Shown here in pieces: positions 6,441 to 17,222 of a stretch of 64,000 nt of DNA (within the stretch, counting starts at the first letter, position 1; each line of letters starts with the position of its first letter). A program made the translations under genes and the position numbers. A model generated the notes under the pieces. It did not search any database. It saw nothing but the letters and a program-made list of their open reading frames with translations, and was not told the origin of the DNA. This DNA comes from Alphaproteobacteria bacterium (GTDB lineage: Bacteria; Pseudomonadota; Alphaproteobacteria; JAAXGF01), in the NCBI GenBank assembly GCA_963555825.3, contig CAUVXB020000001.1, positions 928,001-992,000 of the forward strand. Reading direction: 5' to 3'.

Positions 6441-6524
6441 TCAGGAGCCGGCCTTGATCTCGTCGAACAGACGGATGTGCTGTTCCTTGAGCTCGGGCGG
6501 CACGTAATCGTACGCGTGCGATCC
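6441..6524 (-). pseudogene. C-terminal stub of a probable ABC substrate-binding protein
   Basis: Minus frame reads GSHAYDYVPPELKEQHIRLFDEIKAGS-stop, resembling polyamine-type SBP C-termini; nothing upstream. Confidence 0.4.
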
Positions 6525-6677
6525 ATCGTTCGACACTCTGCCTCGCCACGGGTGTCCCCCAGGTACGGATAGCTTATCGGTATCAGTCTAGGAGAGGAGG
6601 ATGGCGGAGTCTAACGGTGCCGTGTCGATGACGGCCTTGGCCAAAAGCAGGCAGTGCGGGGTCTGCTTCAAGCGGGC

Positions 6678-6904
6678 CAAAGAAGAAGTCGAAGGCGCTC
6701 TCGGCATCCTTCCTGGTTTCGGCCATCCAGATGTCTTGCAGGCGCCCCTTGGCTTTCTTTTGCGGGGATCTGCTTCCCCAGGAGCGCCGCCAAGGCTTCC
6801 CCGCAAAAGGCTAGCGCGGCAGGATCGCCGACGTGAAGCGGATGGCGCCGTCCCCCCGGTCCCGCACACGGGGTTGGCGCACGCTCACCGGGCCGATCCC
6901 GGTC
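6678..6904 (-). mobile_element. Patchwork of collinear IS256 fragments
   Basis: Blocks identical to ~16210-16290, ~16720-16745 and ~16819-16911, in the same order and orientation. Confidence 0.8.
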
Positions 6905-7199
6905 GGAAGCGGACGCTGTGCGCCGACCTCGCCGACGTCTGCTGCTGACCCAGCCTGTGTGAAAACGCCGGCAAATCCCACTAACAGGAGAGTGTTCGGT
7001 CAATTCTTCGAAGGTGTCCTCTGATAAGATATTGATTTTGTTGAGTTTAGAAATTCGAGAATTCAGAGAAAATCGTGCCGATAGCGCTCGGGGGCGGTTT
7101 TTACACATGGCGTAACTCGGGGATCGGGCACTGCTCTCCTTAATGTAGCAACGACCGGCATGGGCCGGGCGAGCACACTGAAAGAGCAGGAGAGCAGCT

Positions 7200-8265
7200 A
7201 TGGAACTGTATGTTGGAATGGATGTATCGCTCAAGGAGACCTCGATACGCCGCCTTCATTTCAACGCCGTACACAAGATTCTGCGTGGTCGATGACAACG
7301 GCGAGATCGTGTCCGAGGGCGTGGTGATCTCGGAGCCGGCGGCAATCGCGGCGTATATCAGGACAACGGCGCCGCACGCAAAGCGCATCGGTCTGGAGAC
7401 CGGTCCGACGACGACCTGGCTGTGGCATGAGCTCAGGGCGCTCGGCTTGCCGGTGATCTGCATCGATGCGCGTCATGCCAAGGCGGCGCTGTCGATGCAG
7501 ATCAACAAGAGCGACCGGAACGATGCCGCCGGGATCGCGCGGATCATGCAGTGCGGTTGGTACAAGGAGGTCCAAGTCAAGAGCGTGGCGTGCCACGAGA
7601 TACGGGCCGTCCTGAACAGCCGGGCCCAGTTGGTCAAGATCAAGCGTGATCTCGAGAACCAGATCCGTGGCTTGCTCAAGAACCTCGGCCTCGTCATCGG
7701 CAAGGCGGGCGGCAATGTCTTCCGTCGCCGGGTCGAAGAGCTGCTTGGCGGGCAGGGTCTTTTGTCGGAGGCCGTTCGGCCCCTTCTGGAAGTCCGCGAG
7801 AAGGTCGGCCGAGAGATCGCCGCGCTCTATCGCAAGCTGCTGGGCCTGGCGCGGAACGACGAGGACAGCAGACGTTCCATGACGGTTCCAGGCATCGGGC
7901 CGATCACCGCCTTGGCCTTCCACTCGGCGATCGACGAGCCGAGCCGCTTCCGACGTTCCCGGAGTGTCGGCGCGTACATCGGGCTGACGCCGCGCCGCCA
8001 TGCTTCCGGCGAGGTCGATTGGACGGGGCGGATCTCCAAATGCGGCGATCGAATGCTCAGGACCTACCTCTTCGAGGCGGCCGGCGTGCTGCTCACCCGG
8101 GTGCCGCGATGGTGCGCGCTCAAGGCCTGGGGTCACAGGTTGTGGAAACGCATCGGCTTCAAGAAGGCCAAGATCGCCGTGGCACGGAAGCTGGCGGTCA
8201 TCCTCCATCGCATGTGGCGTGATGGAACGGACTTCATCTGGTCAACCAAGGAGGCGGCCGCATAG
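7200..8265 (+). pseudogene. IS110 DEDD recombinase/transposase, frameshifted by a 34-nt insert
   Basis: MELYVGMDVSLKETS then frame change to CVVDDNGE, GLETG, KSDRNDA, VPGIGPITA, GLTPRRHASG, ISKCGD. Confidence 0.88.
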
Positions 8266-8500
8266 GGAAACAACGTCCAAGCATTCCGCGAGAGCGGAAC
8301 CGATGTCCCTGTCGGGACGGCGGCGTCGGCGAGATCGATCCAGGCTTTGCGATGCCTCACCGAGGCAAGCGCGCTTCACACATTGATCCGCCAACGTCCT
8401 CCAACGCCATCATGCGGAGGGCCGAGCCCCTACCGCGGAGAGAACAGTGAACCCGGCAGGTACGTCACGGAGAGCTTGACAACCAACCCCCGAGTTAGAG
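8266..8500 (+). ncRNA. Putative bridge/seek RNA of the first IS110
   Basis: TCCAGGCT 8339-8346 and TTCACACA 8375-8382 match the target; ACGCCAT 8404-8410 and AGAGAACA 8439-8446 match the IS ends; boundaries approximate. Confidence 0.8.
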
Positions 8501-8624
8501 AACATTGATCCGCCAACGTCCTCCAACGCCATCATGCGGAGGGCCGAGCCCCTACCGCGGAGAGAACAGTGAACCCGGCAGGTACGTCACGGAGAGCTTG
8601 ACAACCAACCCCCGAGTTAGAGAA
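8381..8624 (+). repeat. Perfect 122-bp tandem duplication
   Basis: 8381-8502 equals 8503-8624. Confidence 0.95.
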
Positions 8625-8913
8625 CAGCCTGGACCCTATGCGGACATAAGACGTTCTGGGACCGCGTGCCTAATGTCGCCGCCATGACGGCGATTGATCC
8701 CGTAGCATCCCTGTCGCCCGACAGGACGGGCGTGTGCTGCGCGGGTCGAAGTGCGGACCACAGTCTTTCGTGACAGCTCGGGACCGAATACGCGGTCGGA
8801 TGCCCATTCCGCTGTCATTGTTGGCGGTTGTGAGAAGCCATCTGGGGAATTCCGGTTAAGACAGTGGCCTTCTCAACGACCGGCGTTCAAGATAGTACAA
8901 ACCCAATCGAATT

Positions 8914-10461
8914 GTGGCCACCCGTGTCATGGCTGAAGCTACCGTGAACGCCGAACCGCAACATCCCGACCGGTTGACCCTGCGCGGTATGATGATTGCG
9001 CTGTGCGCGACCGTCAGCACTGGGGCCTACGCCTTCACATGGAATTCGGTGGGCGTCGCCCTGCCACGGATGCAGGGCAGCTTCTCGGCGACCACCGATC
9101 AGATCACCTGGGTCGCCATATCGTTCGTCATCGGCAGCGCCATGATGACCGGCTGCATCGGCTGGTTCAGCTCCCGGTTCGGGCGCAAGCAGTTGTTTAT
9201 GTTCTCCATCGCCGGTTATGTGGTGAGCCTGCTGGGCTGCGCCTCGGCCACGACGTTGGGCGAGGAGGTGGTGTGGCGGTTTCTCCAGGGCCTCCTCGGG
9301 GCGCCGATGATGCCGTTGGGTCAGGCCATCGCGGTCAACGCCTTTCCCGCCGACCGACACGCTCAGGCGACGTCGCTATGGGCGCTGGGCTTCGTTTCGG
9401 CCAACGTCTTCTCGCCGGTCATCGCCGGCGGACTGGTCGAGAATTACGGCTGGCCGTGGATCTATTATGTGACGGTGCCCGTCGGCATCGCTGTCTTCAT
9501 CGCCTCGTGGTTCCTGGTGCCGAACGAAGCCAAGGACCCGCGCCCGCTCGACTGGACCGGATTTCTCGCCCTGATCATCGGCGTCGCCACGTTGCAATTG
9601 ATGCTTGCCCGGGGCCAGCGCCTCGACTGGTTCGAGTCCAACGAGATCATCATCGAGGCGGTGGTCGCTGTCATCGCGATTCACGTCTTCATCGTTCATA
9701 CCATTACCGGCAAAAGCCCCTTCGTCGACCGCGCTCTGTTTCGCGACCGCAATTACGCCCTTGGCCAGGTGTTCATCTTCACCGTCGGCGCGGTAATGTT
9801 CCTGCCGCTCCTGTTGCTGCCGCTGCTGATGCAGCAGATCGCCGGCTATCCGCCCATCGAAACCGGCTATCTGCTGTTGCCCCGAGGCATCGGCTCGGTC
9901 CTCGGGCTGCTGGTCATGAGTCAGATGCGCGACCGCGTCGACCCGCGTCCGCTGATCTTCATGGGCCTCGCCACCATGGCCTGGTCGGCCTGGGACATGT
10001 CCCAGTGGACCGTCGAAGTTGGTAGGTGGGACATCGCCTTTCCCAATTTCATGCAGGGTTGCGCCGCCAGTTTTATATGGGCGCCGCTCAACAAGCTGGT
10101 GCTGTCGAACCTGGGCCGGCGATTTCAGGATCAGGGTTACGCGTTGTTCTATCTAAACTTCGATATAGGCAGCGCGCTCGGCACCGCCTCGATCATCGCG
10201 CTTCACGCCCGCCACAGCCAGATCAACCACGCCATCCTCAGCGAGTACGTCAATCCCTTCAACGATTGGTTCCGCATGGGCACCGGGTCGGGCGCCTGGT
10301 CACTGTCCGATAGCAGCAGTCTGGCCGCGATCGAGGTCGAGATCACCCGCCAGGCGACGATGATCTCCTACAACAACAGCTTCATGGTGATCGCCATTTC
10401 ACTGGCCGCGCTGATCCCCCTGATCCTGCTATTCCGCCACCGCCGGCCCAAGGGGCCTTGA
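8914..10461 (+). CDS. DHA2/EmrB-like MFS efflux transporter
   Basis: VALPRMQGSFSATTDQITWV, RFGRKQLF, RFLQGLLG, GQRLDWFES; many hydrophobic segments. Confidence 0.9.
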   Translation: MATRVMAEATVNAEPQHPDRLTLRGMMIALCATVSTGAYAFTWNSVGVALPRMQGSFSATTDQITWVAISFVIGSAMMTGCIGWFSSRFGRKQLFMFSIAGYVVSLLGCASATTLGEEVVWRFLQGLLGAPMMPLGQAIAVNAFPADRHAQATSLWALGFVSANVFSPVIAGGLVENYGWPWIYYVTVPVGIAVFIASWFLVPNEAKDPRPLDWTGFLALIIGVATLQLMLARGQRLDWFESNEIIIEAVVAVIAIHVFIVHTITGKSPFVDRALFRDRNYALGQVFIFTVGAVMFLPLLLLPLLMQQIAGYPPIETGYLLLPRGIGSVLGLLVMSQMRDRVDPRPLIFMGLATMAWSAWDMSQWTVEVGRWDIAFPNFMQGCAASFIWAPLNKLVLSNLGRRFQDQGYALFYLNFDIGSALGTASIIALHARHSQINHAILSEYVNPFNDWFRMGTGSGAWSLSDSSSLAAIEVEITRQATMISYNNSFMVIAISLAALIPLILLFRHRRPKGP

Positions 10462-15847: not shown

Positions 15848-17222
15848 GAGCTATTGTCAAAAGTTGTGTATGGGCTGATCATGCGGCGGCGCGATCCTGG
15901 CGTTCTCCATCTACGAATTTGACGCCGCGAATGATCTCGGCGAGATGGTTCGATCCATCGAGTTTTCTCCATTTTCTCTGAGCGCACTGGCATAGTTTGA
16001 AGACCATGGCCATCGCCGTCTTGCGCGACAGGCAGCCCTTGGTCCGGTAGGTGCGCAGACGAACCGTGGCGAACGTGCTCTCGATGGGGTTGGTCGTGCG
16101 TACATGCTTCCAGTGCTCGGCGGGGAAGTCGTAGAACGTCAGCAGGACGTCGCGGTCCTTGGCCAGGCAGGCCGCGGCCTTGTCGTACTTCGGCCCGTAG
16201 GCTTCCAGGAAGAAGTCGAAGGCGCTCTCGGCATCCTTCCTGGTTTCGGCCATCCAGATGTCTTGCAGGCGCCCCTTGGCTTTCTTTTGCAGACCCTTGG
16301 GCAGCTTGTTCAAGACGTTGCCCGTCTTGTGAACCCAGCAGCGTTGCTCGCGGGCGCCTGGGTAGACTTGGCGGAGCGCCTTCCAGAAGCCGAGCGCGCC
16401 GTCGCCGAGCGCCAGTTGCGGACCCATTTCAAGGCCGCGCCGCTTGAGATCGAGCAGAACTTCGAGCCAGGACTGCTCACTTTCGCGATAGCCGTCGGCG
16501 ATGGCGATCAGTTCCTTCTGTCCCTTGTCCGTGGCCCCGACGATCACCAGGATGCACTGCTTCTCTTCCTCCATGCGGGCGCTGAAATAGATGCCGTCCA
16601 CCCAGAAATAGACGTAGCGCTTGGCCGTGAGGTCGCGCCGTTGCCAGCGCTCCGCCTCAACCCCCCAGACCTCTTTCAGCCGGGTGATCGTGGAGGCCGA
16701 AAGCCCCGGCGCGGAGCTCCCCAGGAGCGCCGCCAAGGCTTCCCCGAAGTCGCCGGTGGAAATGCCCTTCAGATACAGCCATGGCAAAAGGTCTTCCAGG
16801 CTCTTGGCGCGGCGCAGATAGCGCGGCAGGATCGCCGACGTGAAGCGGATGGCGCCGTCCCCCCGGTCCCGCACACGGGGTTGGCGCACGCTCACCGGGC
16901 CGATCCCGGTCTGGATGAAGCGTTCCGGCAGATATCCATTGCGGACAACCCGGCGGCGGCCGGCGGCGTCAACAAGCGCCGCATGGCTACCCAAAAACAC
17001 GGAGACCTCGGCCTCAACGGCTTGGGCCAACAACTCGCGAGCTCCAGCTTGTAGGACTTCCGTCAACGGATCTTTCTGAAAATCAGATGGGTTTTGAAAA
17101 GCAACAACGGTATTCTCTTTCATGGCGTATCCTTCCTTGGCTTAGCTCAAGTGGTGACATCAACAATCACCAGGATACGCCGCCTTCATTTCAACGCCGT
17201 ACACAAGATTCGGTTATAGCTC
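15848..17222 (-). mobile_element. IS256 family element, intact
   Basis: IRs GAGCTAT.../...ATAGCTC; 9-bp target duplication TTGCCAAGC at 15839-15847 and 17223-17231. Confidence 0.95.
15879..17123 (-). CDS. IS256 transposase
   Basis: YFWVDGIY, GDGALGFW, QRCWVHK, RTTNPIES. Confidence 0.95.
   Translation of the reverse strand: MKENTVVAFQNPSDFQKDPLTEVLQAGARELLAQAVEAEVSVFLGSHAALVDAAGRRRVVRNGYLPERFIQTGIGPVSVRQPRVRDRGDGAIRFTSAILPRYLRRAKSLEDLLPWLYLKGISTGDFGEALAALLGSSAPGLSASTITRLKEVWGVEAERWQRRDLTAKRYVYFWVDGIYFSARMEEEKQCILVIVGATDKGQKELIAIADGYRESEQSWLEVLLDLKRRGLEMGPQLALGDGALGFWKALRQVYPGAREQRCWVHKTGNVLNKLPKGLQKKAKGRLQDIWMAETRKDAESAFDFFLEAYGPKYDKAAACLAKDRDVLLTFYDFPAEHWKHVRTTNPIESTFATVRLRTYRTKGCLSRKTAMAMVFKLCQCAQRKWRKLDGSNHLAEIIRGVKFVDGERQDRAAA

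What the first reader, a model, noticed from the sequence alone, without database searches (positions are those of the whole stretch)
8381..8626. 122-bp duplication joins the IS right end to its own guide sequence exactly at the CA core: possible self-targeting scar
Seen: the repeat junction is AGAGAA-CA-TTGATCC. This is the element's right end and core fused to what normally follows the left-target guide TTCACA-CA in the RNA gene. The duplicated unit is the entire donor-binding loop plus the right end. Inference: the DNA copy of the guide is a half target, so the recombinase may have inserted a copy into its own bridge RNA gene, followed by collapse of the duplicated part. The result has two right ends and two donor loops and suggests a route by which bridge RNA loops are amplified or shuffled. 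Slippage at the 3-nt ACA microhomology or misassembly are alternatives.
Basis: partly seen in the sequence, partly recalled or inferred. Interest (0 to 1): 0.75.

Follow-up and report, generated by a model that had tools for sequence, protein, structure and literature searches.

The report
Right-end tandem duplication in an IS1111 element
An RNA-guided insertion sequence carries a perfect 122-bp repeat of its donor-binding RNA loop and right end; it is one of several such right-end repeats in this genome, which look like traces of one-sided reactions by the element's own recombinase.

Summary
Window 8380-8626 is a perfect 2.0-copy, 122-bp tandem repeat. It lies at the 3' end of an IS1111-group (IS110 family) element inserted in the inverted repeat of a MITE-like repeat. 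The junction joins the right end and its core to the base after the left-target guide, and the unit is the donor-binding loop plus right end. The core is AC, not CA.

The event is not unique. Four of six copies in this genome carry independent right-end duplications with periods of 23, 122, 203 (three copies) and 630 bp, and a 71%-identical relative has one of 142 bp. All five junctions read right end-AC | internal X-AC. Only the window's uses the guide. The two copies without a duplication are the two that share a transposase frameshift.

My best reading (0.55) is a recombinase-initiated, right-end-anchored, one-sided event resolved in place. A 2026 preprint reports this at scale for IS110 loci. 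Self-targeting of guide DNA is only hinted at: the same junction recurs in two diverged metagenome lineages, but the search that found them was biased. No read-level confirmation was possible.

The parts
6950..7104 (+). Left part of a ~170-bp MITE-like repeat with ~20-bp terminal inverted repeats. Its last bases (...GGTTTTTAC) are the left target (LT).
   Evidence: An alignment of 5 empty and 4 occupied copies puts the insertion point at ...TTTTTAC-AC|AGCCTGGGTC. There are 11 copies of at least 140 nt in the genome, 6 of them occupied by this IS.
7105..7106 (+). AC core at the left junction
   Evidence: AC sits at both IS boundaries and once in empty sites.
7107..7199 (+). Left end (ATGGCGTAACTCGGGG...) with a subterminal inverted repeat at 7113-7127, followed by the 5' leader
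   Evidence: Inverted repeats I8/I9, 7113-7127 against 8483-8497 and 8605-8619, 15 nt, 87%. The left end's first 7 nt are the reverse complement of the right-donor guide.
7200..8265 (+). Transposase gene (DEDD_Tnp_IS110 + Transposase_20). In this copy it is broken by a 34-nt insert, with a stop after 31 codons.
   Evidence: The intact copy encodes 343 aa, with PF02371 at 1.8e-22 and PF01548 at 1.7e-16. The window copy is otherwise identical to the canonical copy.
7247..7280 (+). 34-nt filler insert copied from the leader of a high-copy IS256-family element
   Evidence: The 38-mer 7244-7281 has 40 exact copies in the genome. The other 39 all lie 11 nt inside one end of another IS, whose gene is a Mutator-family transposase.
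8310..8459 (+). Bridge/seek RNA gene (long form): outer stem 8310-8316 / 8452-8458 enclosing the target-binding and donor-binding loops
   Evidence: RNAalifold on 29 relatives gave 36 pairs, 4 with compensatory changes. The single-sequence fold is -69 kcal/mol, z = -3.18. Rfam gave no match.
8339..8346 (+). Right-target guide TCCAGGCT, the reverse complement of the right flank AGCCTGGA
   Evidence: It matches the window flank 8626-8633 at 8 of 8 positions. In relatives, 60 of 67 loci have at most 2 mismatches of 8. The observed mean is 1.43 against 3.22 for shuffles.
8374..8381 (+). Left-target guide CTTCAC plus AC core. This is the left breakpoint of the duplication.
   Evidence: Guide equals left flank at 7 of 7 positions in 55 of 62 related loci. 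The observed mean is 0.23 mismatches against 1.55 for shuffles. The local target TTTAC-AC differs by one base.
8382..8503 (+). Repeat unit 1. It holds the 3' strand of the target-loop basal stem (ATTGATCCGCC), the right-donor guide ACGCCAT (8404-8410), the donor-loop hairpin, the left-donor guide AGAGAAC (8439-8445), a spacer, the right end (8483-8501) and the AC core (8502-8503).
8504..8625 (+). Repeat unit 2, identical to unit 1. It is a second donor-binding loop and a second right end with AC core (8624-8625), without a target-binding loop.
8626..8647 (+). Right target (AGCCTGGACC...), the remainder of the MITE-like repeat's inverted repeat
   Evidence: The same ~21-nt flank follows four other copies. 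It matches the right-target guide.

Best explanation
The window holds one of six copies of a 1,365-1,367-bp IS1111-group element. This copy is longer because of a 34-nt insert and the repeat. The element's 3' non-coding region encodes a two-loop bridge/seek RNA. The 122-bp repeat is the product of a one-sided reaction anchored at the right end (the 'left donor' half-site).

Proposed steps:
1. The transposase-RNA complex cuts the top strand just 3' of the AC core at the right end, as it does at the start of excision.
2. That right end-AC end is not joined to the left end. It is joined to, or primes DNA synthesis at, another AC a short way upstream in a sister or second copy of the element.
3. 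Replication or homologous recombination resolves the product in place as a tandem duplication of everything between that AC and the right end.

In the window copy the upstream AC is the core of the left-target guide, whose DNA is a perfect left half-target. In other copies other ACs were used.

Shown: the anatomy, the guide assignments, five independent junctions of the form right end-AC|X-AC, and the link with intact transposase genes.
Inferred: that the recombinase makes the cut, the strand polarity, and how the event is resolved.

Consequences: the element keeps one complete bridge RNA gene, and gains a second donor loop and a second usable right end.
For: 1. The right boundary is always the exact IS terminus + AC. 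This holds in 5 of 5 independent duplications: periods 122, 630, 203 (3.02 copies) and 23 bp in this genome and 142 bp in L067, a 71%-identical relative from another assembly.
2. Every internal breakpoint is preceded by AC, with microhomology of 2-4 nt. AC occupies 64 sites in 1,367 nt, so five random hits would have a probability of about 2e-7 (my arithmetic).
3. There were 0 left-end duplications in 6 copies.
4. The duplication is present in all 4 copies with the canonical sequence. Three of these have an intact 343-aa transposase, and the window copy is broken only by a private 34-nt insert. It is absent from the 2 copies that share a 2-nt frameshift. Exact probability is 1/15.
5. The internal sites of the 630-, 203- and 23-bp events show no notable likeness to target or donor half-sites compared with the other AC sites. 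The core and proximity, rather than a full guide match, therefore define the partner.
6. Literature:
   - bioRxiv 10.64898/2026.08.14.744561 (sections 8 and 10 read) reports tandem non-coding repeat units next to IS110 transposase genes (n = 468) whose boundaries keep almost only left-donor matches. It speculates that left-donor-initiated reactions are resolved in place.
   - bioRxiv 10.1101/2025.10.25.684509 (section 8) shows top-strand transfer from the LD-RT junction to a new right target.
   - Durrant et al., PMC11208160 (passages), found the expected core at 87.2% of off-target insertions.
Against: - The two units of the 630-bp duplication differ at 2 positions: the upstream unit carries 1114A and 1170C, and the downstream unit is canonical. 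A sister-chromatid event does not predict this. It points to an exchange between copies or to later mutation.
- AC microhomology of 2-4 nt is also what transposase-independent slippage or repair would leave.
- Duplications are rare elsewhere. Only 1 of the 72 related loci with a recognisable right end has one. None was seen among 36 matches in five IS-rich genomes or 15 matches in 61 genomes.
- The link with intact transposase rests on 6 copies.
- Nothing here shows catalysis.
- No read-level proof of the repeat exists (contigs only).
Confidence: 0.55

Rival explanations
1. Self-insertion and collapse. A circular copy of the IS inserted into the left-target-guide DNA of a resident copy, which acted as a half target. 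Homologous recombination between the two ~1.24-kb direct repeats then deleted one, leaving only the 122-bp right-end repeat.
For: The guide DNA is a perfect left half-site + core. The same junction, right end-AC|ATTGATCC, occurs in two diverged metagenome lineages, L099 (unit roughly 80% identical, by eye from the alignment) and L124. Collapse of the longer repeat is expected to be fast. The SNP pattern of the 630-bp case fits an incoming copy that differs from the resident one.
Against: It needs two steps in each of five cases. Four of the five breakpoints are not at a guide and are not target-like. The right half of the pseudo-target (ATTGATCC) matches the right-target guide at 1 of 8 positions (sequence). 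No nested intermediate and no left-end duplication was seen. L099 and L124 came from a search that could only find breakpoints within 30 nt of this site.
Confidence: 0.15
2. Partial-circle or module re-integration. A sub-element running from an internal AC to the right end is excised, or copied out, as a small circle. It is then put back next to a resident right end. This happens either by the recombinase at the right end|right target junction, which still holds the right half-target, or by homologous recombination. Repeats of the process give arrays.
For: ISPpu9 forms several sub-element circles and tandem ssr9 modules (PMC12288879, sections 15 and 18 read). Partial circles are reported at IS110 loci (preprint passage). 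The 630-bp case has units of different sequence. There are three copies of the 203-bp unit. In contigs of other runs the ATTGATCC... module is preceded by MITE-like left-target sequence (X15, X16) or by other DNA (X1), one contig each. L223 is a transposase-less derivative whose deletion ends at the guide core.
Against: A 23-bp circle is physically implausible and a 122-bp double-stranded circle is strained. The module's left edge is not like the left end, unlike the A'/B' boxes of MITEPpu9. The preprint says partial circles mostly reuse the other terminus (RD). The loose ends are single contigs and none of their contexts is in this genome.
Confidence: 0.15
3. Transposase-independent replication slippage or unequal exchange at short microhomology near a structured region.
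For: Microhomologies of 2-4 nt occur at all junctions. The region is rich in stable hairpins. Once formed, a repeat can expand by ordinary unequal recombination, which may explain the three 203-bp copies.
Against: It cannot explain why 5 of 5 events share the exact IS terminus as one breakpoint, why no other internal tandem repeats were found in the six copies, or why the two frameshifted copies lack duplications.
Confidence: 0.08
4. Assembly artefact: the repeat is not in the real DNA.
For: No raw reads could be examined. The contigs laid from four public runs do not bridge the repeat.
Against: There are four different, precise junctions in one 2-contig, 6.04-Mb assembly. Each joins the exact IS end to an internal AC. 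Analogous junctions occur in unrelated assemblies (L067, L099, L124). Artefacts would not respect the element's core dinucleotide.
Confidence: 0.04

Closest known systems
Tandem non-coding repeat units at IS110 loci with left-donor-only boundaries (bioRxiv 10.64898/2026.08.14.744561, Aug 2026; passages and sections 8 and 10 read)
   Same: Adjacent same-strand repeats lie next to the transposase gene, and the repeat-unit boundary keeps the left-donor (right end) sequence. One-sided, half-match reactions are proposed to be resolved in place as duplications.
   Different: 'IS1111' does not occur in that text (0 occurrences). Here the bridge RNA lies 3' of the gene, so the repeats amplify the donor loop together with the end. 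Here the partner breakpoints can be read base by base (all AC). One is the left-target guide, and 4 of 6 copies in one genome are affected. I found no mention of guide-encoding DNA as a breakpoint in the passages searched. The supplements were not visible.
ISPpu9 / MITEPpu9 (ssr9) modular transposition in Pseudomonas putida (PMC12288879)
   Same: An IS110-family element targets a repeated palindromic element. Downstream modules are bounded by end-like sequence, several kinds of circle form, and tandem module copies occur in some strains. Recombination takes place at a fixed dinucleotide.
   Different: The ssr9 module has both left-like (A') and right-like (B') boxes and an unrelated sRNA. Here the unit has only a right end. 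Its left edge is an internal AC, and its content is part of the element's own bridge RNA gene.
IS1111-family seekRNA elements ISEc11, ISPa11, ISKpn4 (Siddiquee et al. 2024, PMC11187229)
   Same: Same transposase domains, subterminal inverted repeats and a 3' non-coding region. The segment complementary to the target's top strand lies 5' of the one complementary to the bottom strand. The long RNA is about 150 nt, matching their 154 nt.
   Different: A different lineage and target (the inverted repeat of a MITE-like repeat), with core AC. No right-end duplication appears in the sections I read (8 and 9).
IS621 / CazIS110-1 bridge recombination: off-target and direct-transfer reactions (PMC11208160; bioRxiv 10.1101/2025.10.25.684509)
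   Same: The core dinucleotide is kept at most off-target sites. Top-strand transfer from the LD-RT junction to a new right target gives an LD-nRT junction, which is the form seen here (right end-AC|internal sequence).
   Different: Those are experimental systems with 5' bridge RNAs and CT cores. No in-place tandem duplication of the end is described in the parts I read.
One-ended transposition of IS91-type elements (named as an analogy in the 2026 preprint; otherwise recalled)
   Same: One functionally dominant end drives capture or duplication of adjacent DNA.
   Different: The enzyme is unrelated (a HUH rolling-circle transposase) and uses no RNA guide.

Membership tests
IS110 family, IS1111 group | Transposase with a DEDD (RuvC-like) N-terminal domain and a Transposase_20 C-terminal domain | tested here: met
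   PF01548 at 1.7e-16 (residues 5-150) and PF02371 at 1.8e-22 (residues 216-291) on the intact 343-aa copy.
IS110 family, IS1111 group | Subterminal inverted repeats | tested here: met
   7113-7127 against 8483-8497 and 8605-8619, 15 nt, 87% complementary (I8/I9).
IS110 family, IS1111 group | Long non-coding region downstream of the transposase gene | tested here: met
   There are 238 nt between the stop (8265) and the first right end (8503). The region is conserved in 58 distinct related sequences.
IS110 family, IS1111 group | Site-specific insertion with a conserved core dinucleotide at both boundaries and no target duplication | tested here: met
   Empty sites read ...TTTTTAC-AC-AGCCTGGGTC. 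Occupied sites read LT-AC-left end ... right end-AC-RT.
IS110 family, IS1111 group | Circular double-stranded intermediate | not testable with these tools
   Only contigs of public runs were available.
Bridge RNA / seekRNA | Target-binding loop whose two guides covary with the left and right flanks | tested here: met
   Left guide equals left flank at 7 of 7 positions in 55 of 62 loci, across 8 guide classes. Right guide has at most 2 mismatches of 8 in 60 of 67 loci. Both are far better than 1000 shuffles.
Bridge RNA / seekRNA | Donor-binding loop whose guides match the element's own ends | tested here: met
   AGAGAAC (8439-8445) equals the last 7 nt of right end + core. ACGCCAT (8404-8410) is the reverse complement of the left end ATGGCGT. 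L067 changes both the guide (ACCCAT) and the left end (ATGGGA).
Bridge RNA / seekRNA | Conserved two-loop secondary structure | tested here: met
   RNAalifold on 29 sequences gave 36 pairs, 4 with compensatory changes. The single-sequence fold agrees, z = -3.18.
Bridge RNA / seekRNA | Match to a curated RNA family | tested here: not met
   Rfam 15 cmscan of 6500-9200 at E <= 1 gave 0 matches. I do not know whether Rfam holds an IS1111 seekRNA model, so this says little.
Bridge RNA / seekRNA | RNA is made and binds the transposase | not testable with these tools
   No RNA run held the stretch (0 of 20 holders on record as RNA).
Left-donor-bounded tandem expansion of IS110 loci (2026 preprint) | At least 2 adjacent same-strand units of >= 50 bp and >= 95% identity next to the transposase module | tested here: met
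   122 bp x 2.0 at 100%. Also 203 bp x 3.02 and 630 bp in other copies. The 23-bp case falls below that size cut-off.
Left-donor-bounded tandem expansion of IS110 loci (2026 preprint) | Repeat-unit boundary keeps a left-donor (right end) match but no paired right-donor match | tested here: met
   All five junctions carry the full right end + AC. By my reading of the junction and left-end sequences, the sequence after the junction matches the left end at 3 of 9 positions (A, T and G) in the window case. The left-end match column was computed two bases out of register and is not used.
MITEPpu9-like hitchhiking module | Module flanked by both left-end-like and right-end-like boxes | tested here: not met
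   The unit starts with ATTGATCCGCC, the 3' strand of the target-loop stem, not a left-end-like box.

The most novel reading that the evidence does not exclude
A bridge RNA gene necessarily holds DNA copies of its own same-sense guides, each with the core. The left-target guide and the left-donor guide are therefore built-in half-sites for the element's own recombinase. In IS1111 elements these half-sites lie within about 120 bp of the right end. This makes the RNA gene a hotspot of self-directed recombination that cuts it into modules. Possible outcomes are a donor-loop + right-end unit that is duplicated (window, L099, L124), a unit left behind or moved as a solo module (contigs of X15, X16, X1), or a unit retained in a transposase-less derivative (L223). 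This would be a natural route for amplifying, shuffling and exchanging bridge RNA loops between elements.
Probability: 0.22. Interest if true: 0.72.

Novelty: new member of a known kind. Interest (0 to 1): 0.5.

Why it matters
Bridge/seek-RNA recombinases are being developed as programmable genome editors, so their side reactions matter. This genome gives a natural, base-resolution record of one kind of side reaction. There are five independent right-end-anchored duplications, all crossing at the AC core, and they are seen only in copies with the canonical sequence.

The record supports the recent proposal that half-site (left-donor-only) reactions are resolved in place. It extends that proposal to the IS1111 group, where the duplicated piece carries a donor-binding loop. 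It also points to a concrete and testable risk: DNA encoding a guide is itself a half-target, which matters when guide and recombinase are delivered on DNA.

If the guide-core hotspot is real, it would explain how bridge RNA loops become modular and how transposase-less derivatives arise.

Tried and rejected
- Rfam scan of 6500-9200: no match.
- Read check: all 24 listed runs are kept as contigs only. In the four laid (X15, X16, X1, X5), no listed piece spans the stretch. No contig was laid across the 8502-8504 junction with sequence on both sides. The one record starting at 8501 (X15) has 7 unmatched leading letters and 3 differences, and looks like a relative's normal guide region. This neither confirms nor refutes the repeat. 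Per-contig depths were not used as evidence.
- The five loose-end contexts are not in this genome.
- Metagenome pattern scan: at least 119 stretches matched and 80 loci were fetched. Of these, 78 show no IS features and are unrelated or chance matches, as I had estimated beforehand. That includes L173, which has gap 0 but no IS context.
- Wider surveys gave little:
  - Own family: 13 genomes, only fragments.
  - Class sample: 8 of 401 genomes matched, with only 2 candidates scored per genome.
  - Five IS-rich genomes: 36 matches, none tandem.
  - A genus sample: 5 of 61 genomes, 15 matches, none tandem.
  - Plasmids: 3 records.
- Self-BLAST of the 78 related loci used a 40-bp floor, so small repeats like the 23-bp one could be missed. 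A motif count of right ends found a second right end only in L067.
- The search of earlier findings was not open.
- One search failed because of a frame slip and was corrected. A regex bug stopped before its second half, which was redone. My first extraction of the right-donor guide was off by three bases and was corrected.
- The left-end match column is shifted by two bases and is not used.
- I considered and dropped the idea that the internal sites of the 630-, 203- and 23-bp events resemble target or donor half-sites. Their match scores are unremarkable among the 64 AC sites.
Full report
**1. The observation.**
Window 8380-8626 is a perfect tandem repeat. The repeat finder gives two 122-nt copies at 100% identity (8380-8501 and 8502-8623). 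TRF gives period 122, 2.0 copies, 100% matches and score 494. An exact self-match test gives a 247-bp span. The junction reads ...GAGTTAGAGAAC|ATTGATCCGCC. Chance cannot produce this.

**2. What the element is.**
The repeat closes an insertion sequence that has six full-length copies in the 6.04-Mb, 2-contig genome. The intact copies encode a 343-aa protein with DEDD_Tnp_IS110 (1.7e-16) and Transposase_20 (1.8e-22) domains. The element has subterminal inverted repeats (I8/I9) and a 238-nt non-coding region after the gene. These are the features of the IS1111 group (Siddiquee et al. 2024, PMC11187229; abstract and sections 8 and 9 read).

Aligning five empty and four occupied sites shows the target. 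It is the terminal inverted repeat of a ~170-bp MITE-like repeat...GGTTTTTAC-AC-AGCCTGGGTC. The genome has 11 copies of this repeat of at least 140 nt, and 6 are occupied. AC is present at both IS boundaries and once in empty sites.

**3. The bridge/seek RNA.**
I fetched 78 related loci (67-90% protein identity) and aligned their 3' regions.
- *Structure.* RNAalifold on 29 of them predicts three elements. There is an outer stem (window 8310-16 / 8452-58). There is a target-binding loop whose basal stem is GGCGAGATCG / ATTGATCCGCC, with a distal hairpin. There is also a donor-binding hairpin. Of the 36 predicted pairs, 4 have compensatory changes. The window sequence alone folds the same way (-69 kcal/mol, z = -3.18).
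- *Left-target guide.* The 7 nt before ATTGATCC equal the left flank + core in 55 of 62 loci, across 8 guide classes. The mean is 0.23 mismatches against 1.55 for shuffles.
- *Right-target guide.* The 8 nt after TCGN are the reverse complement of the right flank, with at most 2 mismatches in 60 of 67 loci. The mean is 1.43 against 3.22 for shuffles.
- *Donor guides.* AGAGAAC (8439-45) equals the right end + core. ACGCCAT (8404-10) is the reverse complement of the left end. L067 changes this guide and its left end together.
- *Guide order.* The top-strand-complementary guide comes first, as reported for IS1111 seekRNAs.
- *Rfam.* No match.

The left breakpoint is the core of the left-target guide, and the unit is the donor-binding loop plus right end. 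The unit also includes the 3' strand of the target-loop stem. The first copy of the RNA gene stays complete. The second unit has a donor loop and a right end but no target loop.

**4. The core is AC, not CA.**
The shared ACA allows either phase in the window. Four other junctions lack the trailing A (see part 5), and 6 of 67 relatives have a right flank that does not begin with A. In the AC phase the units are 8382-8503 and 8504-8625.

**5. The event is one of a series.**

| Event | Location | Period | Internal site \| what follows |
|---|---|---|---|
| A | window | 122 bp | CTTCAC-AC\|ATTGATCC (left-target guide) |
| B | contig 1, 344228-346225 | 630 bp | GCAG-AC\|GTTCC (inside the transposase gene) |
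| C | contig 2, 1372475-1374248 | 203 bp, 3.02 copies | GCGGA-AC\|CGATG (30 nt past the stop codon) |
| E | contig 1, 1664821-1666211 | 23 bp | CTTG-AC\|AACCAACC (between donor loop and right end) |
| D | L067, a 71%-identical relative in another assembly | 142 bp | CTCCA-AC\|GGGCGACC (target-loop hairpin) |

All five junctions read right end...GAGA-AC followed by internal sequence. AC occupies 64 sites in the 1,367-nt element, so five random breakpoints landing after AC has a probability of about 2e-7 (my arithmetic). Sharing the exact terminus is less likely still. No copy has a left-end duplication. The internal sites of B, C and E score unremarkably against target and donor half-sites compared with the other AC sites.

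**6. Link with the transposase gene.**
Copies C and E and the window copy (without its insert) are identical over 1,367 nt. B differs at two positions. All four carry a duplication. The two copies without one (contig 2 at 2016852 and 3488420) share 407A>G and a 2-nt deletion that stops the protein after 137 residues. Four of four against zero of two has an exact probability of 1/15. This is suggestive of action in cis by an active enzyme, but it rests on six copies.

The window copy's own gene is broken by a private 34-nt insert, so it would now need enzyme in trans. No two copies share a duplication. The events therefore arose in place after insertion.

**7. A complication.**
In B the upstream unit carries 1114A and 1170C, while the downstream unit is canonical. 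1114A is also present in one other copy. A sister-chromatid event would copy both variants into both units. Here either two copies exchanged sequence, through a circle or a partial circle, or mutations followed the event.

**8. Is the guide core a preferred site?**
In the unbiased set, 1 of 5 events uses it. Chance is about 8% over 64 AC sites, or about 23% over the 16 AC sites in the last 250 nt (for that count).

I scanned metagenome contigs for the right-end motif followed within 0-30 nt by the ATTGA(A/T)CC(A/G)CC stem. Of 80 loci fetched from at least 119 matches, only two have IS features, L099 and L124. Both have gap 0, which is the window's junction type, in diverged lineages. This search could see only breakpoints within 30 nt of the site, where about three ACs lie. 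Together with L067 (gap 20) that makes 3 of 4 at gap 0, with P about 0.1 by my arithmetic.

Other hints involve the same boundary:
- L223 is a transposase-less derivative whose internal deletion ends at the guide core / ATYGA.
- Single contigs of other runs have the ATTGATCC... module preceded by MITE-like left-target sequence (X15, X16) or by unrelated DNA (X1). None of these contexts is in this genome.

Taken together this is a lead, not a result.

**9. Mechanism.**
The simplest account of all the data is a one-sided reaction at the right end. The right end corresponds to the 'left donor' half of the donor site.
- The right end is cut after AC.
- The end is joined to, or primes synthesis at, a nearby AC of a sister or second copy.
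- The product is resolved in place.

Three papers bear on this:
- CazIS110-1 transfers the top strand of the LD-RT junction to a new right target, giving LD-nRT (bioRxiv 10.1101/2025.10.25.684509, section 8).
- IS621 off-target insertions keep the core in 87.2% of sites (PMC11208160, passages).
- A 2026 preprint reports tandem non-coding repeat units beside IS110 transposase genes (n = 468) whose boundaries keep almost only left-donor matches. It speculates that left-donor-initiated reactions duplicate the intervening segment (10.64898/2026.08.14.744561, sections 8 and 10).

Their weights are given in the Rival explanations section. None of the catalytic steps is shown here.

**10. Novelty.**
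The general phenomenon is in print as a preprint.
- The word 'IS1111' does not occur in that preprint.
- The passages found with the terms LTG, 'repeat unit' and 'self' do not mention guide-encoding DNA as a breakpoint.
- 'self-target' and 'tandem' do not occur in Durrant et al..
- Supplementary files of all papers were closed and may hold relevant cases.

I therefore file this as a new member of a known kind. It adds base-level junctions, an unusually high incidence in one genome (4 of 6 copies, against 1 of 72 related loci with a recognisable right end), and a link with intact transposase genes.

**11. Limits.**
- There is no read-level confirmation (contigs only).
- Samples are small.
- The surveys of other genomes were shallow.
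- There are no RNA data.

Noticed in passing
window 7247-7280: A 34-nt insert breaks the transposase gene of this copy only. The surrounding 38-mer (7244-7281) has 40 exact copies in the genome. The other 39 each lie 11 nt inside one end of a high-copy IS. The insert is therefore an internal, non-terminal piece of another element's leader copied into this gene, a templated filler insertion with GAT/C microhomology at its edges. Its origin is unexplained.
   Followed up: partly
window 15879-17222: One of about 39 copies of an IS256-family element. Its 414-aa ORF matches Transposase_mut (PF00872) at 1.3e-58. It is the source of the 34-nt filler sequence. One copy (contig 2 near 1083190) is followed by a GTGTCTCT microsatellite.
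   Followed up: partly
window 6950-7107 and 8626-8647; genome-wide: A ~170-bp MITE-like repeat with ~20-bp terminal inverted repeats (..CCAGGCTGTGTAAAAAC) is the IS target. There are 11 copies of at least 140 nt, and 6 are occupied. Each copy offers the target twice, in opposite orientations, and two IS copies (B and C) sit in the other inverted repeat.
   Followed up: partly
L002 1242-1505 (contig 1, 1664415-1664678, minus strand): The left ~260 nt of a diverged relative (about 75% identical) of the same IS sits inverted in the opposite inverted repeat of the MITE copy that holds copy E. Its transposase start carries an extra ~45-nt insertion.
   Followed up: no
genome contig 2, 2842354-2842537 and 840560-840645; contig 1, 346345-346465: Solo right-end fragments of older relatives (82-91% identity). 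The first has different target guides (CGACCGAGGT / TCTTCAATA), and its right flank GCCTCGGCC matches the changed right guide. This is an in-genome example of guide-target covariation.
   Followed up: partly
genome contig 2, 2016852-2018217 and 3487055-3488420: Two IS copies share 407A>G and a 2-nt deletion that frameshifts the transposase (stop after 137 aa). A defective copy has therefore been moved, or duplicated, in trans. These are the only two copies with a single right end.
   Followed up: yes
L223 200-490 (G412, contig 22): A transposase-less derivative of a related IS. It consists of left target, left end, leader and 42 nt of the gene, joined at GCAAAC-ATCGA to the donor loop and right end, followed by the right target. 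It keeps both ends and the donor loop but has no target loop.
   Followed up: partly
L026, L049, L075, L086, L022 (right flanks): In 5 of the 67 related loci scored, the right end is followed by sequence that does not match the element's own right-target guide (5-7 mismatches of 8). L022 reads GAGAAC-AAC-GCCTCGG, as if 3 nt were added. These may be further one-sided or rearranged junctions.
   Followed up: no
L099 620-830 (metagenome contig): A right-end fragment that starts inside the donor hairpin is followed by a full ATTGATCC...right end unit and a target-like flank. No transposase gene lies upstream. It is a decayed array that still keeps the window-type junction.
   Followed up: partly
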